From contig CM052828.1 of the NCBI GenBank assembly GCA_028534125.1, forward strand, positions 60,822,001-60,886,000: DNA of 64,000 nucleotides, read 5' to 3'. How positions within the stretch are numbered: the first letter of the stretch is position 1; each line of letters begins with the position of its first letter. Under the pieces are notes generated by a model. The model did no database searches. It saw only the letters and a list, made by a program, of their open reading frames with translations, and was not told the DNA's origin. A program made the position numbers and the translations under genes. Of this stretch, positions 476 through 63,018 are shown piece by piece. The DNA comes from Lama glama. Its lineage: Eukaryota.

Positions 476-578
476 ATCGTTAAGTTGATCAAATTTTCAA
501 AAGAGCATCCTATCACTCTGGCCATCGGTGACGGAGCCAACGATGTCAGCATGATCCTGGAGGCCCACGTGGGCATCG
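476..578 (+). CDS. ATP11A: ATP11A coding exon (approx. human exon 21), P-domain GDGAND hinge
   Basis: ttccag|ATC...ATCG|gtgagc; 103 nt, phase 0 to 1; [34 protein letters not shown] contains the P-type ATPase GDGAND motif. Confidence 0.97.
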
Positions 579-1109
579 GTGAGCCCCCCAGTTCTGCTTC
601 TCGGCAAAAGAAGCAAAACTGGTGACCTGGTGACTCAGCTGGACGAGAAGGGACACAGCCCAGGCTCAGCCGTAGAGTTCAGTTCCTTCCCTGGTTTTTA
701 AACTGAAGCGCAGTCAGTCTGTGGCATGCTGCTGTCTGGTGGACGGCGTGGTGATTCGGCCACGCGCACGTGTTCCTTCCACAGTCTCCTGCATTGTAGG
801 CAGTTCAGGACACTGAGCGTAGTTCCCTGTGCTGCCCAGTGGGACACTGTTGTTTATCTAGTTGATGTACAGTCGTGTGTGTCTGCAAATCCCAAACTCC
901 CAGTCTATCTGTCCACCCCCGCCGTCCCCCCCCAGTAACCGTGCTTGTTTTCTGTTCGACCGCAGAACTCAGACGGCAAACTTGGGAGCCCTGTCTGTGG
1001 GGTGTCGTGGCTGGAAATGCCACGGTGGCGGTCCAGTGTCGCCTGGTCGTGCCTGCTCCCCGCGGGGTGTTGACAGGGGTTGGCTCAGCGTTGCCCTCCC
1101 TTATTGTAG

Positions 1110-1255
1110 GTGTCATCGGGAAGGAGGGTCGCCAGGCCGCCAGGAACAGTGACTACGCGATACCGAGGTTTAAGCATTTGAAGAAGATGCTGCTCGTTCA
1201 CGGGCACTTTTATTACATTAGAATATCTGAGCTCGTGCAGTACTTCTTTTATAAG
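1110..1255 (+). CDS. ATP11A: ATP11A coding exon (approx. exon 22)
   Basis: ttgtag|GT...AAG|gtagga; 146 nt, phase 1 to 0; [49 protein letters not shown], with the P4-ATPase GxEGxQA..SDY and YFFYKN motifs. Confidence 0.97.
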
Positions 1256-1814
1256 GTAGGAGGCACTTCCTCCTGTCACTGTGTCAGTGCACGTGACGTG
1301 CAGGTTGAGGTGACCCGCCTGTCAGAACGCCTCGCGGCTGCAGGGGAGCTCTATCTGCAAACAGAGGCATCTGTCGGAGAGGAAGGGGTTACCCCTGCGG
1401 CATCGGGGGGAGACCCCTGAGCCTGCTCGCACATTCCCGAAACGCACCGTGGGGGCGGGGGTCTGCGGTGGTTGAGGAAGGCCCACCTGCTGTAATTCCT
1501 TGAAGGAGTTCCTTCCACACCGTGCACATTGATTCTCCGCATTTATGCTGGCCCGACGCTCCCTCCTCCCTTGTCTTTCACGAATTTCCCCTCACGCGGT
1601 CTGTCCGCAGAGGGACCAGGCGCGACCAGCACACAGCGCGCGAGCCGTCGGAGTGAGGCAGGTTTAAGGCCGTTGCCCGACTTCCTGTAGACCGCGGGGC
1701 GCTCGGGGCCCTTTGCGCAGATAGCCAGCCTCTCAGAGCCCATGGCACGAGACAGGGCAGAGCTGCCTCTGGCCGTGTGTCCTTGAACTCACAGGCATGC
1801 GCCTTGTCTTTCAG

Positions 1815-1874
1815 AACGTCTGCTTCATTTTCCCTCAGTTTTTATACCAGTTCTTCTGCGGGTTTTCTCAACAG
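1815..1874 (+). CDS. ATP11A: ATP11A coding exon (approx. exon 23), not in the ORF track
   Basis: tttcag|AAC...CAG|gtgagt; 60 nt, phase 0 to 0; [20 protein letters not shown] (TM5 region). Confidence 0.96.
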
Positions 1875-2275
1875 GTGAGTCCTGATGTCTGAAATCAGAG
1901 CTCGCCTGGGTCTGGGTGGACGTCGGGGCGTGCAGGCTGGGTCATTAGAGCAACCGGGATCGGGGGAAACTGAGGCTTGAAGGTGGACATCAGATTTGCA
2001 AAATTTTATGCAGCGTTTTGTTGCCACACGTTTGCGACAACAGGATGGGGCAGGTTGGCCGTGATTCCAGTCCTGACCAGCCGACCTTGTGACGCTTTGG
2101 AGAGCGTCCTGGTCCTTCTGTATCTGTGGAAAAGGGGCCCTGTATCCGTTTCAGGATGCGCGTGTGTGTGAGGCTTAGCAGATTACAAACACACGCGTGT
2201 GTGTTCAAACAAACGGCCCAAACAGCCGGTCCAGCCACGCAGCGCCATCCTCACGCGCGCCCCCCCCCCCCGCAG

Positions 2276-2403
2276 ACGCTGTACGACACTGCCTACCTGA
2301 CGCTGTACAACATCAGCTTCACGTCCCTGCCCATCCTGCTCTACAGCCTCATGGAGCAACACGTCGGCGTGGACACGCTCAGGAGGGACCCTTCGCTCTA
2401 CAG
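2276..2403 (+). CDS. ATP11A: ATP11A coding exon (approx. exon 24)
   Basis: ccgcag|ACG...TACAG|gtgcgt; 128 nt, phase 0 to 2; [42 protein letters not shown](R), with the TM6 YNxxFTSLP motif. Confidence 0.96.
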
Positions 2404-2829
2404 GTGCGTGGGCAGCCCTGCCGCAGCCCCTTGCACTCAAGATGTCCGGTGTCCGCTGGTCCACTTGCTTCCACAGGAAGTTCTGCAGGCAGGAAGCAAC
2501 GTGGTCTAAGTGGATGTCCTTCAAATGTAGACAGGATTCACGTTGAAACGGACATATTAGACCAGTTCACATTTTGCCTTGCTTGGGGGCAGTTACGAAA
2601 GAGCGGGGTCGGGTCCTGGCCCCTGTGACCCTGGGGCTCTGGGGCCTGAAGCGCCCTCGGGGAGCCCAACGTCTTCTACTCAGTGAGAAAAGAGAGGCGT
2701 TAACATGTGACCACGGGGTGTGCCCTTTTCTGCCAAAGAGGAGTTTTAGGAAGGAGGAAAAGACTTTGCTGCCATTTCAGATGCTCCCCAGCATCTGTGG
2801 CTGATTCAGCACATTACTGTTCGGGGTGG

Positions 2830-3110
2830 CTTTTTAAATTAAACGCAGTATTTTGAGAAAATTTTAGATGCACATGTAGTCGTGAGACGTAGTAGAGAGA
2901 TTCTGTGACCCTTTATCCAGGGCCCTGGTGGTGACGTCTGTGAGCCGCGGGGCGGTGTCACAGCCAGGGCACCGACACCCCACCCATCGGACCCGAGTTT
3001 CCCCAGGTTTACGGCCCTTGCCCGTGTGTGCACGCGTGTCTGTGCGTTTGATCCTGTGCAGGCTTCTCACCTGTGTGGATCCTGTGCCCACGCAGTCAAG
3101 GCTGCCCACC
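2830..3110 (-). mobile_element. Old L1 (L1MC/MD-like) 3' end fragment
   Basis: T-rich start and 'ttttagatgcacatgtagtcgtgag..agagagattctgtgaccctttatccag' resemble an antisense L1MD/MC 3' UTR. Confidence 0.55.
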
Positions 3111-4117
3111 AGCCTCGTGGCCTCACTAGAAGAATCAGCCATTAGCTGGGATCTTGAAGTGATGCCCAAGATAAGCACTGCAGGCGAGAAAAAGGCAAAC
3201 TGCCCAGGAACCTAGAGGACGACACGCTGCGTTAGACACACACCCAGCAGGAGTCCCATGGGTTCTCTTACTGAGTGGCAGGTGTACGACGTCCCTGCGC
3301 AAACGTGCGGCCTCACGCGGGAGGCCTGCGGTCCTGGCCTCAGTGAACACCAGCCCGGGCCTTGTGGCCCATGTCCTTACTTTCAGAAGCACAAGTGTGA
3401 GCTCTGGCACTTTCTGTTTGTGTAGTGAGATCACCGTCCAGTTTGAGGGAGAAAATGTTCTAACAGAAATCCTCAGGAGCACCCATTGTGGTGAAGTGCT
3501 CGGTCTGGAACACGTTTTGCACTTGCTGCCAGGGAGCTCAACCCAAAGTGTGGTCCTTCCCCGTCTGTCACATGGGGACGTGGTCCTCTCACCATCGTGC
3601 CATGTCTGCCCACTTCCCATCATGCTTGAGTCTCCTTCCGGGTTGTACTGGAAGCTGTTCCGAAGCCTTTTGGGGACCAGATGTGGCACTGAGTGAAGCG
3701 CACAGAGCAGAAAGTGTGATGTGGGGAATGTGCGGTGGTGTGAGCCCTGAGGAGACTCCCCTTGGGATCCTGCAGGCTCAGTGGGGCCAGAGGGCATGCC
3801 TGGCCCCGAGGATGGGTGGAGATGGGGATCAGGCCGAGATGTGGACAGACAGGGCGTGGGGCGAGCCGCGTGGGAGATCAGGAGCTGAGATGCTTGGCCA
3901 GCTCCTCCAGGACTGAGCCCATGTCAGTCGGCGCCCCCGATGGCCCCAGCAGAGCCTCCTCCAGGGGTCCTGGCCCCCCCATCCCCGCCCCCCCATGGCT
4001 CTGCCCCTTGGGGTCTCAGGGAGTCGGGCTGCCTGGAGGCGGGCAGTCACTGCAGGGCTGCTGTGTAGGGCGCGTCTGTGTGGACGTGACCACGGGTCCC
4101 ACCTTCTCCTCTTGCAG

Positions 4118-4253
4118 AGACATCGCCAAGAACGCTCTCCTCCGCTGGCGGGTGTTCGTTTACTGGACGTTCCTGGGCGTGTTCGATGCTCTGGTGTTTT
4201 TCTTCGGTGCTTACTTCATGTTTGAAAACACAACAGTGACCAGCAACGGACAG
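4118..4253 (+). CDS. ATP11A: ATP11A coding exon (approx. exon 25)
   Basis: ttgcag|A GAC...CAG|gtcagt; 136 nt, phase 2 to 0; DIAKNALLRWRVFVYWTFLGVFDALVFFFGAYFMFENTTVTSNGQ (TM7). Confidence 0.96.
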
Positions 4254-4682
4254 GTCAGTACAGAACTGGGTCTCGCTGGCGTGGGGGATGAAGCTTGAGT
4301 CCAGTGTGGTCGCTGGTCTGTGAGGTCTCGCAGAGCCGCCCACGGGCCTGGAGTCGGGGTGCCACCCCCAGGTCGCAGTCAGGGACGAGGTGACACTGCA
4401 GCCCACACCCTCCCCGAGGGCCCCGGACTCCTTTCTGGTAGCCTGCTTCGCCCTGGGCTGTTAGCGCAGAGGCGCAGTTCGGTCACCCAGGCACAGCGTG
4501 TGTCGCGTGGGGGTTAACTCCGTGCTCAGCGCACTTCGGTGCTCCCCACGCCCGTGAGCGCGTGTGCCCTCTGCAGCGGGTGACTGGCTCTGGGCCTTCG
4601 GCTCCGGTGGGCCGCACGGGCCTGGGAGCTGCTTTATCTGTATCTTGCTTTCTCTCCTCTTGCCATCGCCTCCCTCCCTCAG

Positions 4683-4706
4683 ATAACGGCCGCCAGCACA
4701 CACGTG
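4683..4706 (+). CDS. ATP11A: Candidate 24-nt alternative microexon of ATP11A (ITAASTHV)
   Basis: ~50-nt AG-free pyrimidine tract, ccctcag|ATA ACG GCC GCC AGC ACA CAC GTG|gtaaga; symmetric phase 0 matching the flanking exons; no stop. Confidence 0.7.
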
Positions 4707-7254
4707 GTAAGAACTGTGGGCGTGTCCTGTGTTTTCGGAGTGCGTTGTGAATAAAATATTTCTCGAAAATATTTTCCCCCGTGACTCCCCCGTGTGCTTT
4801 GTCGGTAGAGGCCCTGTCCAGCCGCCCCCGGCGCGTGCCTGGCTCACCGTGCGGGGGCCTCTCTCCGGGTGTGTGTCGGGGTCGTCAGCTGAGTCGGTGC
4901 TACTCCTACATGGACTTGGTGTGTCTGGACTCCCCTTGAGCGCAGGGGGCAGACAGGCACAGGCGCTCGGGGCCCGCGGGGCACGCCGCCGTGACCCGTG
5001 ACCCGTGCTGCGTGGAGGGTGCTGAGCCCACGGGTGTGTCTGTCCTCCTCACGGCTGCAAGGGGCTGCTGTCTCTTTTGTAACTTTTAACAGTTTCTACT
5101 AAGTTGATCTTGGTTTTTCAAAATCTTCTTTCCTGCTTCGAAAGCCCTTACCTTTTCTAGGATTTGCTCTTTGTCGCAGTTTCGGTTGGTGGCTCCCCGC
5201 GGCCGCCAGGCCGCAGTGCAGTTGAACAGCGCTCGCTCGTTGTTCCTCTGCGTCTGTCATACAGTTTCCCCACAGCCCGGCTCTAAGTGGGCATCTCGCG
5301 TGCCGTCAAGAGCTGAGAGTCCGCCCGAGAACCGCGGCGCCGGCGCCCAGGGGGCGCGTCGGCACCGTCATCCGCGCCGCTCAGCCCACACTGTGTCCGC
5401 GGCTCAGCTCCGCAAGCTTCACCCCGGCTCACGACAGCCACCCCTTCAGCCGGACGTTTTCATGGTGTTAAAGCCGAGGAAACCGATGCTCCAGCAGAGG
5501 AAGCACTGTCCAGGGCCAGGTGGTTAGAACCCGGGCCCAGGGCGCTCGTTCTGCTCCGGGCGGCTGTGATACGCTGTGACTGCGGCGTCACCCGATCGGC
5601 AGCCCCTTAGCGGACACGTCTGCGAGGGGAAGGGACACAAGCGCGGAGGCCAGCCTGGTCACCCTGGAAGCGGATGCAGGTGCTGTGCGGCCCCGGCAGC
5701 AGCCCGCTTCCTCAGCCGCTCCGCGTGCTGCTCTGGGTGTTTGGGGCCCTTCAGGGGTCGGCAGGTCCTTGTTCCTGAGGGTCCCCTGAGCCACCACAGA
5801 ACCGGGTCCAACGTCTCGCAGGATCTTGTCCGTGAGACGCTTACCTGCCACCACTGCCCGACTCGTGCGCCTGTGCTCAGCCAGCGCCCGACAGCGTGCT
5901 CGGTTAGAATGTGAAACGGTGACAGAGCTGGAGCAGAGGTAGAGAGGAGGCCCGGCCGACCCGCGGCTCACTGGCCGCGAGCTCTGTGAGCCCCGTGGGG
6001 ACAGCGCCAAGCCCAGCATGCACATCGTCACGGGGAAAGCCCCTGAATCGCAGGCGATGCTACGGCGCACAGAGCAGCGGGACCACGGGAGGTGCCCGCT
6101 GTGAGGCGCCGGCCCGCGGGCGCACGCTGAGGGGCAGGCTTGCTCCGTTCACTGCTGCCCCGTGGACGTTAAGCAAGCTCGGGACTCGAAGTGCGAGGGC
6201 GATCCCGGTCCTGACGGCAGTGTCCTGGGCACGGGCGACCCCTGCGGGCCCCAGGCGCACCTTCATCACCAGGAGGATGGGAGCCCCCGGAGGTCAGGAG
6301 CCTGGGCCCTCGAGGCGGGTGCACCGCGCCAGTGGTCCCAGCTGGGCCCCGTGTTGCCTCGGGGGCCGCACTCTTGGCCTTTCTCGCCCTGGATTGTTGA
6401 TTCTTGAATTCCCGTTTGTTTTGGCTTTAAGAGGGTTAGATCACTCACAAAACTAAAAATGATACTGGATGCTGGTTCTGTAGTAATTCAAGTAAACCTG
6501 CAAACTCAAGTAAGTCCGGGGCGTCTCTGGGGACGGCAGACGCTCCTGGTCTGGGCAGCAGGGCGGTTGGTGACGGTGACGCTCACCACTCGCCCTCGGT
6601 ACCCCTTCCAGGGGAGGACGCCCCTTCTCGGTGGGACGGCTTAGGTGCCCTGTTCTGCGGACTGCCAGCAGGTGGCCAGTTTTTAAAGACCTCGGTCCTT
6701 CTGTGGGGTGTGCGGACCACGGGGAGCGCTGAGGGAAGGAGCACTGATAACTTCTGAGAAAGAGAAAGTCGCTTCTAGGGCACCTTTCGCACGGGCTCGA
6801 GAGCCGTGTCACTTCTCAGACGAGAATGTGAGGCGGCAGCTCCGTTACTACTGTTGAACAGCAGGGTGTTCCTGGGGGACCACGCGAGGGTTTGGGGCGT
6901 GTTGTCACAGAGGTCAGTGACTGTCCGGAGGGTGGGGGTGTGAGTGTCCCCAGCGTGAGGACCAGCTGTGCCCGGGGCTCAGCAGAAGTTGCGAATCAGC
7001 ACCGAGAGCAAGTGTAGGCAGCGTTCCCTCTGACCGTGATTGGAGAACACAAGGCATGTTTGTCCGGGGACATTTTCACACATAAAAATTAAATTGGTCT
7101 GGGTGTTAGAGCGTGTATGAGCAGGGAAGTTTCTTACAAAACACCCGTCCTCAGAGGCAAGGGGGAGGGCGTGAGGAGAAGGAATTAACCTGGGACCTGG
7201 CGGGGGGGCCTGGGGGCTTCCGCTGGCTTCAGCTCTCCCGAGCGAGGCACACTG

Positions 7255-7390
7255 TCTGCAGAGGCACAGCGTCACCCTATGTGACAGTCTCCTCGGTGAC
7301 ACAGTGTCACCTCATGTGACGTCTCCACGGGGATGCAGAGTTACCTTAAGAGACAGTCTCTTCAGAGACAGTGTGTGTCACCTTAGGAGA
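7255..7390. repeat. Degenerate ~33-35-bp tandem repeat with internal palindrome
   Basis: Recurring 'gtcacc..tgtgac(a)gtctc'; GGTGACAC-a-GTGTCACC at 7295-7311. Confidence 0.55.
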
Positions 7391-9409
7391 TCCCACCCCG
7401 GCCTTCACTGGGGGGGCGGGGAACTGACGTCACTTGGAAAAAGGGTCGTCCCTCTGGGCAGCCCTTTGAGAAAGGGAGTTTGCACCCCAGTGAACCCCCA
7501 AACAGTCCATAGAAGTAACTGCAAACAATTTCAGTAATAAATTGACTCTCAGCAGTTGGAGCGAGGGCTCCCTTAAAGCAAGCAGGGGAGCTGGGAGGAG
7601 CACCCCGAGCCGTCACCGCGCGTCCCAGCGAGCCGGGACGGCGCACGGGGGGCCCAGCTGACGGGGGCAGGGGTGTCAGCCTTGCCCAGGTTCCACCCCG
7701 AATTCTGAAATCTGATTCAGGACGGTTGCCTTTGCTGCTTGTCGCCCGTAAAAGTCACAGCTGAGGCCCCTGTGTTTCACTGGGCTGGACGTGGCCCCAG
7801 ACCCACCCACGTCTGCCGAGCCCCCAGGGATCCCGGCGGTGGGTCGGGAAGCCCCCCTCAGGGAGAGACGGGAAACTTCCTCCCTGACTGTGGTGCAGCT
7901 GGACATGCGCTCCCACCACAGTCCCTCCCCATGGTTTCTATTGTCTAAGAAGGGGTTCTGAGGCTCCTGCCCAGCAGAGAGGCAGACACAGGGGCCTGGG
8001 ATGGGGAGCTGGGGGCGGTGCAGCCTTCCCTCCCATCCAGTGCCGATTCAGAGCTGCCACCTTCCTGCAGGCAAACCTTTCACTTCTGGCTAAAAGCAGT
8101 AACTGCCGATGGAAGTGAAACAGGTGTTGAGTCTTCCACCTGCGGGCCAAGCCTTCTCACAGGCCACTGCCAGCTGCTCCCACCTCGCAGGGCAAGTGTT
8201 CCCACCCTGACGGCCAGCGTGGAAGGGGGAGCCCTGTCCTGAAGGGTTTCCCGGCCGGGGCACCGGGGCTGGTGGGGTCAGAGCTGTCGTGGCTGTGGGC
8301 TGCCCCGTGCGATTAGCTGGCCTTCGGCTTCTCCCTGCAGGATGCCAAGAGCTCCCTCCCCCGACAGTGTCCCCAGATGTTGCAGGTGGCCCCCCGCCCC
8401 CACCTGGGGGACAGAATCGCCCCTGGCGAGAGCCTCCGTGGCTGTGATCCAGTTTTAATGACGGTGGTGAAGTGAAGAATAAAGTGAGAAAAGAGTCCAC
8501 GGGGTCCTGATCCTTAAGCCTGTTTCCTACAAAAGTCTTAACGCTTCGACTTTTCTCCTAGAATTCTGCACGTAGGTTATAACCTCACTAAATGTCGCCA
8601 GCCCTGCAGCCCGCGCTCCCCGCAAGTGAGTTGCATGTGGTTGTGCTGCTTTGGTTGAAACCAGTGTTACAGGAAAGCGACTTTCCTTGTAGCTTTTAAA
8701 GCTTTGTCTTCTCCTAAAGGAGACCTAGAACGTTCTCTGAGAGGCACAGCTCCCAGAATTCGACAGGCCAGAAATAGGTCCGCTCCCGGGCGGCGCAGAA
8801 ACCTCAGGGGAAACAAGTCTCACCTCCCGCAGGCTGGTTAGTGCCCCAGAGAAAGGCTCTGAAGCCGCCGGTGCTTCCTTCTGCCTGTGTCTCTGTCTGT
8901 CGCGCTCCCTGCTGGCCGGCCCCGCCCCGGGACCCCCCTCCGCCTGCCGTCACCCCGTGGGACGTGGGACGGGGTTCTTGGCTCTCACCGCCCCCAGGAA
9001 GACGTGCCGGCAGGGCCGCCAACAGGCGTTTGGGTTGAGTTCAGAAGAGAATAGACGCAAACTCTGCTGAGTTTGTTCTTGACCGTGACGGCACGGAAGG
9101 CGCCAGGCTCGGCACTGGGAGCGGGCGGACCAGGGCACAGGCTGTGACTCCAGCCCTCTGTCTGTGAGCAGGACGTTTGTCGAGGGGGCGACATCGGGCC
9201 GACGGGCAGCCAGGCAGGAAGGTCCCCAGGGGGTGGTGCGGGAGCCCGGGCGTCTGCCTGTCCCTTCCCTCGCAGTAGCACCCCGCCGTCCCTGTGTCTC
9301 GGGGGTTGGGGTGCCGTCAGGCAGGAGCCGTGGGAGGTGTCCTGTGGCCGTGTGTGTGAGTGTGAAGGGCAGCCGGATTGACAGAGACTCTGGGCTCTTC
9401 TGTCCGCAG

Positions 9410-9475
9410 ATATTTGGGAACTGGACCTTCGGGACGCTGGTGTTCACGGTGATGGTGTTTACGGTTACCCTGAAG
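9410..9475 (+). CDS. ATP11A: ATP11A coding exon (approx. exon 26)
   Basis: ccgcag|ATA...AAG|gtaaat; 66 nt, phase 0 to 0; IFGNWTFGTLVFTVMVFTVTLK (TM8). Confidence 0.96.
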
Positions 9476-10101
9476 GTAAATCCTCTGACCTCGGGGTCCT
9501 CCTCTAGCCCAAGCTGCCCCACAAGTGAGTTGGGACCCCCAACCCAGGCCCTGGCCCCTAAGGTGCGAAGGTCAGAATTACACAGAAGGCCAAGGAAGGA
9601 AGGATCCTTTTCTGTACGAAAGGACTCGGACTAGAGTTCCTTTTAGTGGCAGGCGGTCCCACCCCCAGTGTCATCACAATGCACTTCAACTGAAACAGAT
9701 TAGTGTGTTGTGGGAAAGTCAGTCAGTGTCTTCCTGGAATGTTAGGAAGGCCCCAAACCCGGTCACGGGGGCCCCATCCTTAACCAGGGAAACGGAAAAG
9801 CCCAGAGCAGAGTGCCCAGTGGTAGTGGGACCAGCGCCTGGAGTCGCCAGCCCTGCGCCTGCCCCGTGGGAGCGGGTCCCCCCGGCCCGGTGAGAATGCC
9901 CAGGGCTGTTGAAACCCGAGTCCTCCTCCCCACTGGAATCTAAGGTTTGTCTTTTCCTGAGCAGGTTCATGTTGGCATCTTGACTAAAATGAAGGCGTTG
10001 TTTGGTTTTTTTCCATTGTTTTCTGGCTTACTTCCCTAGTTTCACGGTTCACGGTGACGTGCCAGGGGAACACCGCTGTGAATGCCTTTGCTTTTTTTCA
10101 G

Positions 10102-10205
10102 CTGGCGCTGGACACACACTACTGGACGTGGATAAACCACCTTGTGATCTGGGGGTCCCTGCTCTTCTACGTCGTGTTTTCCCTCCTCTGGGGAGGAATT
10201 ATCTG
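10102..10205 (+). CDS. ATP11A: ATP11A coding exon (approx. exon 27)
   Basis: ttttcag|CTG...ATCTG|gtacgg; 104 nt, phase 0 to 2; LALDTHYWTWINHLVIWGSLLFYVVFSLLWGGII(W) (TM9). Confidence 0.96.
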
Positions 10206-12141
10206 GTACGGATTTGGCTGTCAGACCGTCATTATTACGTTGGTCGTCCTGCGGTATCGCTCATCAAGGGCGCAACCTCCGTGTGCGAGTGTTTGCTGCG
10301 GGCTGCTGTGTGCGAGGCCTGGTGCTGGGCCCGGGGCCGCGGGGGTCGAGGGGATGTGGTCCCTGCTCCTTCCTCCCGGGTGCTCAGTCAGGAGACGCGC
10401 TGCTCGTAAGTGAGGAGGCCTGTGTCGAGAGGAACAGACCAGATGCCACAGCAAGGCGTCTGTCTCAGATGGAAGTTTGGGGAAGGCTTCTCAAAAAAAG
10501 ACGTTATTGAACTGAAACTGGGAGAAGAGTGCCACCACCACAGTGGGTGCACAGGGGAGCTGGCCTCGGGGGCCGTGGTGGGCGCACAGGGGAGCCGGCC
10601 TCGGGCCTCGGGGTCTGACTCCAGGCGCAGCCCTTCCCCAGGAAGGGAGCCGCGCCAGCAGAAGTGAGTCAGGGCCCAGCGGTGGAAGGCAGTCCACCGA
10701 GGACAGAGTGACCCAGGTCCAGCGTAGGCCACCCCAGACCCCGACCCCAGCCTCACGGCATGGAGGACTTTAGTCAGAGGAGCTCCGAGTCTGGTGATGC
10801 CGTCAGGAGGGGCACTGGCTGCGTGTGGAAAGTGAACTGTGAGTGGGTACGAGCAGGACGCCCGCTGAGAGGCCACTGCAGTGAACGGGTCCAGAAGTGG
10901 TGCTGGTGTGCCCATCCTGACGGCGGCACAGAGGCTGCGTCAGTGCTGCTCCTTCTACCCAGAACGTGCTTCCCAGCTAGCCGGCCTCTGAGCTCCTCCT
11001 CGTCCTTTGAAACCTAGCGGCCCACTGTCCTCTTCAGTCACCTGACCGGTGCTTCCACCGCGTCCCCCAAGCACTTGTTCCTGCCCCTGTCACAACACGT
11101 GCTGTATTTTCCTCTAATCTTCCCGTTTACATTTCTGCCTCCTCTGCAAGAGCGTTTCCTGAGCGGAGCTGGGACTAGGGGCCACAGCCTGGGAGGGAAG
11201 GCCTCCTTCCACTGGGCCTGCTGGCCTCAGCCCAGGCCTGGCCGGACCCGAGACCAGAGGCAGTGTCCCCTCCACTTGCATCTCTGGTACTGCGCACAAG
11301 CTCCCGGGACACGCAAGCGGCCCCTGAGATGGGAGGAGGGGCTCCCTGGTTCTTCAGAGGCCGGTGTCCACCCCACAGCCTGCTCCATTGCTGACCCCCA
11401 GTGGCCACGTCCACGCATTGCACGTTCCCTGAACCGGGGAAACGCAGGAAAACTGGACCAGCTTTGGGTGGGTTTCCAGCAGCCCCGCCCCAGGCTAGGG
11501 GTCGCTGTGGTTCCAGAGGGAGGGTGCCCTGAGACTCCCCCTGCCGGCTCCTGGGCCCTGGGGCTCAGGGGCCACGAAGCTGTGTGGCTCAAGTTCACAC
11601 CGAGGCATGAACCACCGCCCCTTTCCAGCCTCCTCCGAGGAACTCAGTGTAGACGCTTCCTTGAATCACAGCTTCCCCTGGCAGGGAAGGCATTTCATTC
11701 TCTGTATTCTTATAGAAATTTTAAAAAAGTTTATGGTACAAGTTAAGTGGCCACCCGCTCTGCTGATCAGGACCCGTGCTGTCTTCTCCACGTTATTAGC
11801 TGTTGATCAGCTGCAATTCCGAGATACAAAAAAAAATCTCCTATTTCATCGTGTAAAATCTTTTCCACTGTTGTGAAATGGGACTTCTCCCTTTGGGATG
11901 ACATCAGACTCCCTCCTCCTCTTCCCACTCTCAACACCCAGCGCCACAGGGAGAGGTGACATCCCACTGTTAGTGTGGCTGAGTCCTCGGCCTGCCCAGT
12001 GGCCGGCGGTGGCAGCAGTGAGTGCTGCGGGAGCACGCGGGCTCCTCAGGCAGGTGGAGGGAACAGACTGGCATTTCCACGTCTCTCCCGCTGGTTTCTG
12101 ACCTGTCCCGTGTTGTTCTCTCCTCACGCTCGACGCTGCAG

Positions 12142-12307
12142 GCCGTTCCTCAGCTACCGGAGGATGTACTATGTGTTCATCCAGATGCTGTCCAGCGGGC
12201 CCGCCTGGCTGGCCATCGTCCTGCTCGTCACCGTCAGCCTCCTGCCCGACGTGCTCAAGAAAGTGCTGTGCAGACAGCTGTGGCCCAGTGCCACCGAGAG
12301 GGTCCAG
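12142..12307 (+). CDS. ATP11A: ATP11A coding exon (approx. exon 28), last constitutive coding exon
   Basis: ctgcag|G CCG...CAG|gtaccg; 166 nt, phase 2 to 0; PFLSYRRMYYVFIQMLSSGPAWLAIVLLVTVSLLPDVLKKVLCRQLWPSATERVQ (TM10). Confidence 0.96.
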
Positions 12308-13476
12308 GTACCGCCCCGCCCCGGGGTCTCAGCGGGAGGCCGGCCTCACGGAGGAGGGCCTGGAAGCTTGGGTTTGGGAGTGTGACCAGCCCAGCACTGC
12401 TAATGAGTTCCCCGATGACAGGTGCTTGTCAGCGCTAAGCAAGGTAACATTCCAGGTGGCCAGGGTTGAGAGCTGAACAGCGTAGTTGGCTGAAATAAGA
12501 AACAGACTGAGAGAGAAAGGTTAAGCCAGTACAGAAGACAAATTATTTTGTGTAAATTCAAAAAAGTTTTTTTTATTAATCATTGTTTTGAAGTTAGAAT
12601 TGCATTACCTCTAGGGGAGGTGGATTTGGCTCAGACCTTAGCGTTTGTCCTGGGACATCCTGGTTATGAGCAGGCACTTGCTTCCACACTCCCAGACGAG
12701 GCCAGCGGCTGGATCCTGGGTTCAGGGAAGAAGTGAGACACACAAAAGGCCCAGCTGACTTCAGACACAGGATGTTACTCGGAGCTTCTGAGACCGCTCT
12801 GCCCCCTGGACTTCCCGGGGAGGGGACGCTCCCCCACCCCCCCCACTGTGACCCCCCGTCCCTCCCCCCATGACCCCCTGTGAGCTGCCCTCGGAGGTGC
12901 AGAGCCTCAGGGCGGAGGAGGAGGGTGGCGTGAAAGGGCCGAGCCCCCGCCGGGCAGCTGGGGAGGGTGCTTGTCCAGGCGAAGGGGGCGGGCGCGCAGG
13001 TGGGGGGCTGGAGAGAGGGTGGAAACTTTACAGGACGTCCACCCGCGGCCCCCGTAGTCTCGGCCCTTCAGTGCAGGTGGCCCTCCCCTGGGCTGGGGCC
13101 CCACCTCCGCCCATCCTGGCGGGTGACAGGACCGGCATGGGGAGCTTTCTTAGCTCTCGGGCTCATTTACTCCTGAGCTCAGGCCCCAGGCCCCAGGCCT
13201 CGGGAGTCCTCTGTGTCATTCCTGCCGGGTTTGTAAAGTCAGTGCTGACAAATCTCAGGAGGTCAGAGCAGGAGACCCACTGTGGGAAGTGAGGGCTGCG
13301 GCCTCCGAGCTCAGCGGACGGTGGACGCTGCGGCCGTCTGACCGTACTCACCGCCTTCTCTTGTCTCTTCTCTTGCTGGTTCCTCTCGTCTTCCGGCCTC
13401 TTTGCCCAAATAACCATCCTGTCTAACGATGTGCATGGCCTCCTGACCTCTGACCTCTGACCTCTGGGACCGGCAG

Positions 13477-13554
13477 ACTAGGAGCCAGTGCCTTTCTGTC
13501 GAGCAGCCCACCGTCTTTATGCTTTCCCAGACTTCCAGCGGTCTGACTTTCTAG
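13477..13554 (+). CDS. ATP11A: ATP11A canonical C-terminal exon (29a-like); exon spans 13477-13563
   Basis: cggcag|ACT...TTC TAG cgggacaag|gtgatg; TRSQCLSVEQPTVFMLSQTSSGLTF*, matching my recollection of the human tail TKSQCLSVEQSTIFMLSQTSSSLSF. Confidence 0.93.
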   Translation, partial: TRSQCLSVEQPTVFMLSQTSSGLTF

Positions 13555-15549
13555 CGGGACAAGGTGATGCCTTCCTGTCTTCTCGCACGTTTGGGGTTGA
13601 GTCGCAGGATGCGGGGGCCTGGCGTGTAACCTCGGGAGGCACGAGCGCAGCCCTGGCTGGGAGGTACCGGGCCGCAGCGTCCGGAGATGTGGGCACGGGG
13701 CGGCTTCCATCCAGGCACCAACCAGTCCATTGGAAGCGTCAGGGCCCACCTGCCTGGAGGCTGCACGTCTGTGGAGGGTGGGGAGCCGGCTGCCACCACG
13801 CTGGTCCTTCCACGGGGCCCCTCTGCAGCCCCGGGGACGAGGGCAGGTCCTCTCTGCCACTCGCCCACAAGCCTGGCTCTGCATTCGGGGTCCAGGGCCC
13901 CACAGGAGAGGCAGACTGTGGGCAGAGCCGGGACAGACATGTTTGCGGTCAGCTCTTTTACCAAATTCCCTTTTCACTTTTTTTTAAGAATCTGATTGTT
14001 TTTAGGAAAAGGCTCTGCCTTTGCTTTAAGTGGCTGCAGTGCCCCTGTCTTAGCGACACAGAGCCGTGAGCCTGGGGTTTTCTGTGCCGGCCGCCTGGGG
14101 CCCAAGGCTTTCCGTCCAGAGCCAGGGCTTTGGGGACAGAGCTTACCTGTTTCCGGGTGTTTGTGTACCTGAAGGCCCCCTTTGTGTGGCCTCCAAATCC
14201 GGCAGACTTTGCGGGCCTGTGTTTGCTGTTACAGCTTTACCAAGGCCGCGTGCTTCATAGGAAAATGCCTAAACCGAAAAAAAAAAGCCTTTTTCTTTCC
14301 TTTTAGTAATGGTTCATGTTCTATAAAGGTTTAGCAGTGTTTTTTAATTAACAAGACATGCATCTTTAAGTTCAGGTAATTGTTGGGAATCAAAATTGTT
14401 CTAATCTGGTGCCATTAGAATCTGTGAGAATAAATTACATGATTTCGTTTTGCTGTTTTCATACCTGAAAACGTGTAGGATGAAATTATTAGGAACACTT
14501 TTAATAAGTCACAGGAGGTGCTTATGAAATTGGCTAAGTCATGCCAGCTCTGGGCTGAGAACACATACTCTATTGATACAGTTAATCAAGAGCTGATTTG
14601 CTTCTGAACCTTTGTGGAAGCCAGACCCTGGCTGCTTGGGGCCAGGGGCAGCACTGAGCCCCACGGCCGCGCTGCCGGGACCCGGGGGCGCCCCACCCAC
14701 CCCTCACGGGGCCCCTGCCGCCTGCGTGCTCCCCGCGCGCACGGGGTCGGCGCTTTGTGGCTGTGTATCGCCTGACCTCGGCAAAACTTTGGAGGAATAA
14801 ACGTTGACTAGTCCTTAGGTGGAACATCCCACACTTCAAACATGTGGTTTTGTCTTTTAATCTGTCCTGTTGAAAAGAAAAACATCGCTGGCCCCATTTC
14901 ATGTATATTCATATACGTGTGTGTGCACATGTGTCAGCCCTGTGTGTGTGCGTTTATTCCATCTGTGTTCATCTTTCTGTACGGTTGTCTCGTCTCCGCC
15001 CCTGCAAAGAGCAGCAGTGCTGGTCGGCTCTCCCGCTCCTCGTCTGCATCTCCAGCCTTGTGGTTCTTCCACTCCTCAAATTCCCTTCTTCCTCGATGCT
15101 GAGAAACTCACACGGCTTGCCTTGAAAACCTGAGTATTCTGACGCCCAGCCCCGCTGACCTGCAGCCCCACGACTCCTTAGGCGTCCAGGATTCTGGGCT
15201 CAGGCCGGGGCTCTTCCGTTTGACTGGAGAAGGGGCCGAAGGACAGGGCCAGACAGGCACACAGAGAGGGACAGAGGGGCGGGCAGGTGCAGAGTTCCCG
15301 CAGGCCTGGGGGCCTTTGGGGGAGCACCGCCGTCAGGAAATTGCTCAGGAGGCATGCGGTGAGTGGGCCGGACCCTTAGCGCCAGGCTTCAGCACTCTGG
15401 ACAGTGGCCTCTGCTGCGCCCAGCGTGGCAGGTCCCTTGGGGGACGCCCCGGCCCGGCCTCCTCTCTGTGCCGTGTCCCCCTCATTGCCCCACAGAGCTA
15501 GGGGCCGTGTGGCCGCGGCACAGGCTCAGTGTCTGTCCTCGCCTTGCAG

Positions 15550-15642
15550 AGGAGCCCGAGCCGCCCAGCCCCGGCCGACACCGCGCCGAGCCCCGACTGG
15601 CCTCTCCTGAAGGACCCCGAGCCGCGGCCGAGGCGCGAGTAG
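15550..15642 (+). CDS. ATP11A: ATP11A alternative C-terminal exon (29b-like); exon spans 15550-15653
   Basis: ccttgcag|AGG...GAG TAG cccgcggatag|gtaacg; 104-nt exon; phase 0 gives RSPSRPAPADTAPSPDWPLLKDPEPRPRRE*. Confidence 0.68.
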   Translation, partial: RSPSRPAPADTAPSPDWPLLKDPEPRPRRE

Positions 15643-62211: not shown

Positions 62212-63018
62212 CCCCCTGCACTGTCCCTCCCCCTCTAACTGTCCACACCCCCTCCCTGCACTGTCCACCCCCTCCCTGCACTGTCCCTCCCCCAACTGTC
62301 CACCCCCTCCCTGCACTGTCCATCCCCTCCCTGCACTGTCCCNNNNNNNNNNNNNNNNNNNNNNNNNNNNNNNNNNNNNNNNNNNNNNNNNNNNNNNNNN
62401 NNNNNNNNNNNNNNNNNNNNNNNNNNNNNNNNNNNNNNNNNNNNNNNNNNNNNNNNNNNNNNNNNNNNNNNNNNNNNNNNNNNNNNNNNNNNNNNNNNNN
62501 NNNNNNNNNNNNNNNNNNNNNNNNNNNNNNNNNNNNNNNNNNNNNNNNNNNNNNNNNNNNNNNNNNNNNNNNNNNNNNNNNNNNNNNNNNNNNNNNNNNN
62601 NNNNNNNNNNNNNNNNNNNNNNNNNNNNNNNNNNNNNNNNNNNNNNNNNNNNNNNNNNNNNNNNNNNNNNNNNNNNNNNNNNNNNNNNNNNNNNNNNNNN
62701 NNNNNNNNNNNNNNNNNNNNNNNNNNNNNNNNNNNNNNNNNNNNNNNNNNNNNNNNNNNNNNNNNNNNNNNNNNNNNNNNNNNNNNNNNNNNNNNNNNNN
62801 NNNNNNNNNNNNNNNNNNNNNNNNNNNNNNNNNNNNNNNNNNCCTGCACTGTCCATCCCCTCCCTGCGCCATCCACCACCCTCCCTGCACTGTCTACCCC
62901 CCTCCCTGCACTGTCCACCCTCTCCCTGCACTGTCCACCCTCTCCCTGCACTGTCCACCCCCTCCCTGCACTGTCCACCCCCTCCCTGCACTGTCCACCC
63001 TCTCCCTGCACTGTCCAT
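62212..63018. repeat. Minisatellite, ~20-bp unit CCCTCCCTGCACTGTCCACC, spanning a 500-N assembly gap (62343-62842)
   Basis: Near-perfect units on both sides of the N run. Confidence 0.93.

What the first reader, a model, noticed from the sequence alone, without database searches (positions are those of the whole stretch)
4629..4712. Hidden 24-nt in-frame microexon in the exoplasmic TM7-TM8 loop of ATP11A
Seen: AG-free pyrimidine tract (4629-4680), a TGC about 20 nt before the AG, a 24-nt stop-free exon and a GTAAGA donor, inserting ITAASTHV between ..SNGQ and IFGNW... Known: upstream UGC motifs and frame-preserving lengths up to 27 nt typify SRRM3/4-dependent neural microexons, and the TM7-8 loop of P4-ATPases contacts the CDC50A ectodomain. 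Inference: tissue-specific tuning of the CDC50A interaction next to the N-T-T sequon. I have a vague recollection of an 8-aa insert here in other vertebrate ATP11A models. Invisible to the ORF track.
Basis: partly seen in the sequence, partly recalled or inferred. Interest (0 to 1): 0.7.

Follow-up and report, generated by a model that had tools for sequence, protein, structure and literature searches.

The report
Camelid copy of ATP11A retina microexon
This 24-base stretch is the llama/alpaca-type copy of an old, already catalogued mini-exon that human, mouse and chicken retinas splice into the lipid pump ATP11A; here five of its eight amino acids have changed, and it sits just before a conserved signal that likely lets some transcripts end early.

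Summary
Observation confirmed: AG, 24 nt (4683-4706, ITAASTHV), GTAAGA, in frame, after a 52-nt AG-free pyrimidine tract with three TGC motifs. The window is South American camelid ATP11A. An 8-residue insert at this junction occurs in 127 of 240 parsable ATP11-type records, from rays to mammals. By position it is VastDB HsaEX1005044/MmuEX0006735/GgaEX0024944, a published retina microexon (human PSI: retina 83, other neural 1.2, other tissues 0.2) that responds to SRRM4. So it is real but known, and retinal rather than brain-wide in amniotes; this scan already noted the shark copy. Two additions. (1) The camelid peptide differs from the mammalian IMTTNTHM at 5 of 8 residues, all by A>G or T>C changes, against 9 of 301 in flanking exons. 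Yet 204 nt around it are identical in a relative about 5% divergent. (2) An AATAAA lies 43 nt past the donor; one relative's contig ends there in a non-templated A tail, and the element matches rodent sequences. Inclusion in camelids was not seen (0 of 5 informative runs, none recorded as retina). A CDC50A effect is untested, and the sequon link is unlikely.

The parts
4118..4253 (+). Upstream constitutive ATP11A exon (TM7, ends ..SNGQ), donor GTCAGT
   Evidence: spliced to 9410 in runs X1 and X2
4629..4682 (+). AG-free pyrimidine tract with TGC at 4630, 4646, 4661 and the acceptor AG (4681-4682)
   Evidence: matched by the rodent genomic ORF P0218 (E 5e-8 over 4624-4785)
4683..4706 (+). 24-nt in-frame microexon, ITAASTHV (orthologues: (I/L)MT(T/A)NT(H/Q)M)
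   Evidence: best-scoring 8-mer to the bear insert among 4143 stop-free + strand 8-mers of the intron
4707..4712 (+). Microexon donor GTAAGA
4750..4755 (+). AATAAA poly(A) signal
   Evidence: inside a 9-codon stretch (NKIFLENIF) identical in rodent ORFs P0218 and P0219
4771..4771 (+). Likely cleavage/poly(A) site
   Evidence: run X10 contig 4224-4771 followed by 22 A; the genome continues with T4C5, not an A run; one contig in one run
4772..4805 (+). U/GU-rich stretch, likely downstream element of the poly(A) site
   Evidence: sequence; role inferred
4628..4831 (+). 204-nt island with no difference from a relative about 5% divergent
   Evidence: run X2 contig in one piece, 35 differences, all outside the island; P about 0.004 for any such gap in the intron
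9410..9475 (+). Downstream constitutive exon (IFGNW.., TM8)

Best explanation
The 24 bases at 4683-4706 are the camelid orthologue of the ancient ATP11A cassette microexon, which the relative's sampled RNA skips and which is likely spliced in by SRRM3 in retinal photoreceptors, where it would lengthen the outward TM7-TM8 loop by eight residues. Mechanism: the exon is too short for ordinary exon definition (established for microexons), so the default product joins 4253 to 9410 (shown). In cells with SRRM3/4, the eMIC domain would act through the UGC motifs in the long AG-free tract and activate the acceptor at 4682 (shown for the human orthologue by overexpression, inferred here). The longer loop lies under the CDC50A ectodomain (review statement) and likely acts as a spacer that adjusts assembly, trafficking or turnover of the flippase in photoreceptors (untested). 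In camelids loop length and splice signals are kept while side chains drifted, most likely by GC-biased gene conversion near a chromosome end (inferred). The same cassette holds a conserved intronic poly(A) site that gives a third product, an RNA ending at 4771 that would encode a pump cut after TM7 (seen in one contig).
For: Anatomy and chance control. Insert at this junction in 127 of 240 parsable records (282 held; the set was enriched for the insert by the query), from sharks and rays to eutherians. It is the dominant 8-residue indel: 124 of 232 long records at reference bin 995-999, at most 6 at any other place. Published PSI retina/other neural/other: human 82.6/1.2/0.2, mouse 94.6/13.5/1.9, chicken 95.1/17.8/2.5 (PMC9303857 supplement 2). 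Human dPSI >=15 in 4 of 7 SRRM4 overexpression sets, 0 in both MSI1 sets; +48.7 with an amphioxus eMIC protein (PMC12626424 supplement 6). Skip junction in X1 and X2. 204-nt invariant island. Zebrafish atp11a mutants lose outer segments (PMC12148042 passages). Drift: 5/8 against 9/301 (Fisher P 5e-6), GC3 0.79, 0.77 Mb from the end of a 61.6-Mb scaffold.
Against: No inclusion product in any camelid run: 0 of 5 contig sets that cover the locus (X1, X2, X9, X10, X13), and two raw-read runs (X23, X24) laid no read at all; none is recorded as retina. None of 10 camelid protein records has the insert. Thr at position 2 and Val at position 8 occur in 0 of 127 orthologous inserts, which could mean decay of the coding role. 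SRRM3 overexpression in HEK293 moved the human exon by only 2.2 PSI. The zebrafish srrm3/4 mutants moved the fish exon by only -8.3, inside that paper's 'non-regulated' band of >= -15, so SRRM3/4 is not the whole control. Identity with the VastDB ids rests on length, gene and position, not on seeing their sequence. The zebrafish mutant paper points to RPE as a possible cause of the eye defect.
Confidence: 0.75

Rival explanations
1. In camelids the exon is a fading coding exon: it is rarely included even in retina, the peptide drifts nearly neutrally, and the DNA around it stays conserved because of the poly(A) site and the U1-binding donor.
For: 5 of 8 residues changed, including two nearly invariant Met; no camelid record or run shows inclusion; the conserved island reaches 125 nt past the donor and covers the AATAAA and cleavage site.
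Against: The acceptor side (4628-4682) and all 24 exon bases are inside the invariant island; frame, AG, TGC motifs and donor are intact. No run laid is recorded as retina, so absence is expected. Zero changes in 24 nt alone is not significant (about 1.3 expected).
Confidence: 0.15
2. The camelid peptide was changed by positive selection for a new photoreceptor property, then held fixed.
For: Burst of 5 replacements before the split of the two camelid lineages sampled and none since.
Against: All five replacements need A>G or T>C, and the 9 replacements in flanking exons can each be explained the same way (read by hand from the codons; 3 of the 9 have split outgroups). The same kinds of change recur singly in whale, ferret, horse, marmoset and pangolin records. 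This is the pattern of GC-biased conversion.
Confidence: 0.07
3. One reading: a pan-neural (brain) microexon that tunes CDC50A binding through glycosylation of the neighbouring N-T-T sequon.
For: UGC motifs; neural in zebrafish, dPSI 76.9, and a human 'neural' dPSI of 31.8 in the same table; CDC50A ectodomain covers the TM3-TM10 outer loops (PMC11775268 passage).
Against: Non-retina neural PSI 1.2 in human, 13.5 in mouse, 17.8 in chicken; the 31.8 probably includes retina samples (my inference, not checked). The sequon is about 3-4 residues from TM7 and is missing in four insert-bearing records.
Confidence: 0.05
4. Chance arrangement of splice-like motifs with no function.
For: No inclusion read in camelids.
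Against: Orthologous insert in 127 records, rodent match to both flanks, 204-nt invariant island, 0.04 hits per shuffle.
Confidence: 0.01

Closest known systems
ATP11A 24-nt retina microexon (RetMIC): VastDB HsaEX1005044, MmuEX0006735, GgaEX0024944 (PMC9303857 supplement 2); zebrafish DreEX0015646 (PMC12626424 supplement 6)
   Same: Same gene and length. Same place: 8.8 kb before the exon matching the 1134-aa tail here, 12.0 kb before the 87-nt exon in human; zebrafish has a short upstream (about 560 nt) and long downstream (7.1 kb) intron, against 429 nt and 4.7 kb here. Homologous peptide and flanks.
   Different: Peptide differs at 5 of 8 residues from IMTTNTHM, as far as the electric-ray copy; not in the 10 camelid records held; inclusion not shown in camelids.
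RefSeq/Ensembl-type ATP11A isoform models with the insert (e.g. brown bear X1/X2, dog, horse, pygmy sperm whale, platypus, gar)
   Same: Eight residues between ..NGQ and xFGNW.
   Different: Those records keep Met, Val or Leu at position 2 and Met (once Thr) at position 8.
Intronic polyadenylation held down by U1 snRNP at a nearby 5' splice site (general mechanism; PMC12701963 passage)
   Same: AATAAA 43 nt after a strong-looking donor, cleavage 16 nt further on, GU-rich stretch behind it. The rat partial model EDM08859.1 (P0018) runs through the microexon and ends at the equivalent place.
   Different: No paper in my searches links this site to ATP11A or to a microexon; poly(A) site databases could not be consulted and may list it. 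U1 dependence is not tested.

Membership tests
SRRM3/4-responsive microexon (RetMIC) | 3-27 nt, frame-preserving, canonical AG/GT | tested here: met
   24 nt, phase 0/0, no stop
SRRM3/4-responsive microexon (RetMIC) | UGC motifs in a long pyrimidine tract just upstream | tested here: met
   TGC at -22, -37, -53; 52-nt AG-free tract
SRRM3/4-responsive microexon (RetMIC) | Conservation across vertebrates | tested here: met
   127 of 240 parsable records; rodent flanks match
SRRM3/4-responsive microexon (RetMIC) | Skipped outside retina and neurons | tested here: inconclusive
   skip junction in X1 and X2, no inclusion contig in 5 runs; tissue of X9, X10, X13 not on record, and contigs drop rare forms
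SRRM3/4-responsive microexon (RetMIC) | High inclusion in retina of this species | not testable with these tools
   no run recorded as retina among the 24 offered; published for human, mouse, chicken
SRRM3/4-responsive microexon (RetMIC) | Response to SRRM3/4 | not testable with these tools
   published for the human orthologue: 4 of 7 SRRM4 sets >=15, SRRM3 2.2; zebrafish mutants -8.3
Pan-neural microexon | High inclusion in brain neurons | tested here: inconclusive
   from published tables only: low in human, mouse, chicken non-retina neural samples, high in zebrafish; no camelid brain data
Intronic poly(A) site | AATAAA 10-30 nt before a non-templated A tail, no genomic A run | tested here: met
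   AATAAA 4750-4755; 22 A after 4771 in X10; 1 of 4 runs whose contigs reach the site (X1, X2, X9 run through it)
Intronic poly(A) site | Suppression by U1 at the neighbouring donor | not testable with these tools
   needs U1 block or donor mutation
GC-biased gene conversion | A/T>G/C excess in fixed changes, high GC3, subtelomeric place | tested here: met
   5 of 5 exon and 9 of 9 flank replacements explained by A>G or T>C (inferred from residues, no outgroup DNA); GC3 0.79; 0.77 Mb from scaffold end
GC-biased gene conversion | Same bias at neutral sites and in allele frequencies | not tested

The most novel reading that the evidence does not exclude
The ATP11A microexon is a dual-use cassette. 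In photoreceptors it is a coding exon; in every other cell its unused donor binds U1 and guards a poly(A) site 43-65 nt downstream that is conserved from rodents to camelids, so the cassette sets how much ATP11A is cut off after TM7. That second role would explain why camelids froze 204 nt of DNA while letting five of eight encoded residues drift.
Probability: 0.25. Interest if true: 0.6.

Novelty: new member of a known kind. Interest (0 to 1): 0.3.

Why it matters
The exon itself is catalogued, and none of the papers I could search studies its function. ATP11A loss damages zebrafish outer segments and human variants cause deafness (PMC12148042 passages), so a retina-only loop is a testable handle on photoreceptor lipid asymmetry. 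The camelid copy is a natural experiment: if ITAASTHV works as well as IMTTNTHM, loop length rather than side chains is what was conserved since sharks. The adjoining poly(A) site, if confirmed, would tie a tissue-specific microexon to dosage control of a flippase in all tissues, and would make variants in this intronic stretch worth a look in ATP11A disease.

Tried and rejected
AlphaFold2 model of bear ATP11A with the insert (50-row alignment A1): mean pLDDT 46.5, below 50 over the membrane domain, so it was not used for contacts and no fold search was run; it draws helix 957-981, loop 982-997, helix from 998, in line with hydropathy but weak. No complex with CDC50A was predicted: no CDC50A sequence was in hand and a textbook pair would pass by likeness. 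RNA structure over 4620-4835: z = 0.04, nothing special. Raw-read runs X23 and X24 laid 0 reads, so no test; 8 of 24 offered runs were laid. First guess that the window is a bear (upstream exon 45/45 identical) was dropped: 12/301 differences against 0/301 for alpaca. The exon comparison had one exon out of frame and was redone. A second copy of the exon region in the own genome: one match only. No RBFOX GCATG within 300 nt; one TAG (4806) in the 194 nt downstream. MicroExonator supplements: no ATP11A row in 8 files. Supplement of PMC12871342 unreadable; 7 of 19 supplement files of PMC7935315 were not searched. The ATP11C crystal-structure paper was not held, so residue-level contact of the TM7-TM8 loop with CDC50A is not checked. 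Internal oligo-dT priming as the source of the X10 tail was considered and rejected: the contig keeps the genomic T at 4770 (its 18 differences are all accounted for elsewhere) and no A run follows. No splice-strength score was computed.

Full report
Observation. The window carries the 3' part of ATP11A on the + strand. The exon 4118-4253 ends ..SNGQ and the exon 9410-9475 begins IFGNW.., both in phase 0. Inside the intron, 4683-4706 reads ITAASTHV between an AG (4681-4682) and GTAAGA (4707-4712). The 52 nt before the AG hold no other AG, are 85% pyrimidine and contain TGC at -53, -37 and -22. A scan for this anatomy finds only this site in the window on either strand, and 0.04 sites per dinucleotide shuffle (100 shuffles); the criteria were modelled on the site, so the control is rough.

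Whose gene. Eight constitutive exons (301 residues) differ at 0 positions from an alpaca record, 5 from two Camelus records, 12 from brown bear and 16 from human, so the window is a South American camelid (inference). The site lies 0.77 Mb from the end of a 61.6-Mb scaffold and is single-copy in the own genome.

Homology. Of 282 proteins held after could be parsed at this junction: 127 carry an 8-residue insert and 113 none. The set is enriched for the insert because one search used it as query; 42 records were fragments, read-throughs or unparsable. The insert occurs in shark, ray, sturgeon, gar, teleosts, amphibians, reptiles, birds, platypus and many eutherians, with consensus (I/L)MT(T/A)NT(H/Q)M. 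ITAASTHV is the best match to the bear insert among 4143 stop-free + strand 8-mers of the intron, though only 15th in the whole window, so the peptide alone proves little. The flanks settle it: an unnamed ORF of rodent type (P0218) runs through the upstream tract, the exon and the downstream intron and matches window 4624-4785 (E 5e-8). None of 10 camelid records has the insert.

What is known. PMC9303857 (supplement rows; main-text passages) lists a 24-nt ATP11A exon as a retina microexon in human (PSI retina 82.6, other neural 1.2, other tissues 0.2), mouse (94.6, 13.5, 1.9) and chicken (95.1, 17.8, 2.5); the main text does not mention ATP11A. The human exon gained 5.6 to 33.5 PSI in seven SRRM4 overexpression sets (4 of 7 at 15 or more), 2.2 with SRRM3 in HEK293 and 0 with MSI1; PMC7935315 supplement rows agree. 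PMC12626424 (supplement rows; passages) lists the zebrafish orthologue as neural (dPSI 76.9, inclusion rising to 85 at 7 days), only -8.3 in srrm3/4 mutants, and the human exon at +48.7 with an amphioxus eMIC protein. It also gives a human neural dPSI of 31.8, which I read as including retina but did not check. I did not see the sequence behind these ids. The match rests on gene, length and position (12.0 kb before the 87-nt tail exon in human, 8.8 kb here) and on this being the dominant 8-residue indel (124 of 232 long records; at most 6 elsewhere). Searches for ATP11A with microexon, with alternative splicing and exon inclusion, and with SRRM4 listed no study of this exon's function; I saw passages of two of those papers and only the listing for the rest.

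RNA evidence. Eight of 24 offered runs were laid. X23 and X24 gave no reads. X1, X2, X9, X10 and X13 come from a relative about 5% divergent (Camelus-like, inferred). X1 shows the joint 4253>9410 at depth 414 and X2 the same join as a loose end; none of the five shows inclusion. No run is recorded as retina (X1 and X2 are labelled reproductive system), contigs drop rare forms and human-like contigs are filtered, so this fits a retina-restricted exon but does not show inclusion in camelids.

Frozen DNA, drifted peptide. The X2 contig spans 4224-5000 in one piece with 35 differences, none in 4628-4831. About 10.7 would be expected at the intron-wide rate, and a gap this long arose somewhere in the intron in 0.4% of simulations. 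The island covers tract, exon, donor and 125 nt downstream. Against this, the peptide differs from IMTTNTHM at 5 of 8 residues, while 9 of 301 flanking residues differ from the majority of 17 chosen eutherian records (Fisher P 5e-6). Thr2 and Val8 occur in 0 of 127 orthologues. Each of the five changes needs A>G or T>C, and each of the nine flank changes can be explained the same way (read by hand from the codons; three have split outgroups). With GC3 of 0.79 and a subtelomeric place this points to GC-biased gene conversion acting on a loosely constrained loop rather than adaptation (inference; no outgroup DNA). The comparison with mostly membrane-helix exons overstates the acceleration somewhat.

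A poly(A) site in the same cassette. AATAAA lies at 4750-4755, one of three in the 5.2-kb intron. In run X10 a contig of depth 64 leaves the upstream exon unspliced, runs to 4771 and ends in 22 A; the genome continues with T4C5, and the contig keeps T4770, so internal priming is unlikely. X1, X2 and X9 run through the site, so this is 1 of 4 runs, and X10 is only guessed to be RNA. The nine codons covering signal and cleavage site read NKIFLENIF in both the window and two rodent-type ORFs. The rat partial model EDM08859.1 splices into the microexon, ignores its donor and stops at NKIFL, as a cDNA ending at this site would. In the camelid, the unspliced form stops at 4296 and a microexon read-through at 4752; both would lack TM8-TM10 and likely be degraded. 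U1 is described as suppressing intronic polyadenylation (PMC12701963 passage); that the microexon's donor does so here is a hypothesis. Searches for ATP11A with intronic polyadenylation (1 review, no link), for microexon with telescripting and premature cleavage (0) and in this scan's notes (0) found nothing, but poly(A) databases and most subscription papers were out of reach.

Protein level. The insert (993-1000 in the bear record) sits in the hydrophilic stretch between two hydrophobic peaks; the same junction in solved ATP11C follows ..EENG. A review states that the CDC50A ectodomain covers the outer loops of TM3-TM10 (PMC11775268 passage) and another that TM7-10 roles are poorly understood (PMC11460456 passage). 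My structure model was too poor to use. An effect on CDC50A binding or trafficking is therefore plausible but untested. The sequon idea is weak: the Asn is 3-4 residues from TM7 (the 12+14 distance rule is recalled, not from a call) and four insert-bearing records lack it. Zebrafish atp11a nulls lose outer segments, possibly through the RPE (PMC12148042 passages).

Verdict. Real, ancient, catalogued retina microexon; the camelid copy is an unannotated member with an unusually drifted peptide and a likely conserved poly(A) site beside it. Interest 0.3; the dual-use reading (probability 0.25) would deserve 0.6.

Noticed in passing
window 4750-4805: Conserved intronic poly(A) signal with a non-templated A tail at 4771 in run X10; the stretch also holds a near-palindromic repeat of AAAATATTT.
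   Followed up: partly
window 13474-13551 and 15544-15615: Two alternative C-terminal exons of ATP11A: one matches the 1134-aa primate tail, the other the tail of the alpaca record. The second may correspond to the human 104-nt exon discussed in note e1-8636437.
   Followed up: no
window 6857-6904: The horse record P0086 continues from the microexon into a short tail that weakly matches here (E 1.6): possibly another terminal exon.
   Followed up: no
proteins P0018, P0235, P0238: In rat, deer mouse and vole the insert itself contains an N-T-S sequon, absent in other groups; probably too near TM8 to be used.
   Followed up: no
ATP11A records, reference position about 190 (outside the window): Six of 232 long records carry another 8-residue insertion there.
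   Followed up: no
window 477-12307: All nine residues where the window departs from the eutherian majority can be explained by A>G or T>C changes; GC3 is 0.79.
   Followed up: partly
window 4224-5188: Runs X9 and X10 show the 5' part of this intron at about the depth of the upstream exon (77.6 vs 79.5; 64 vs 52.5), far above the rest of the intron in X9; contig depth is a poor measure of level.
   Followed up: no
window 62343-62842: Assembly gap of 500 N.
   Followed up: no
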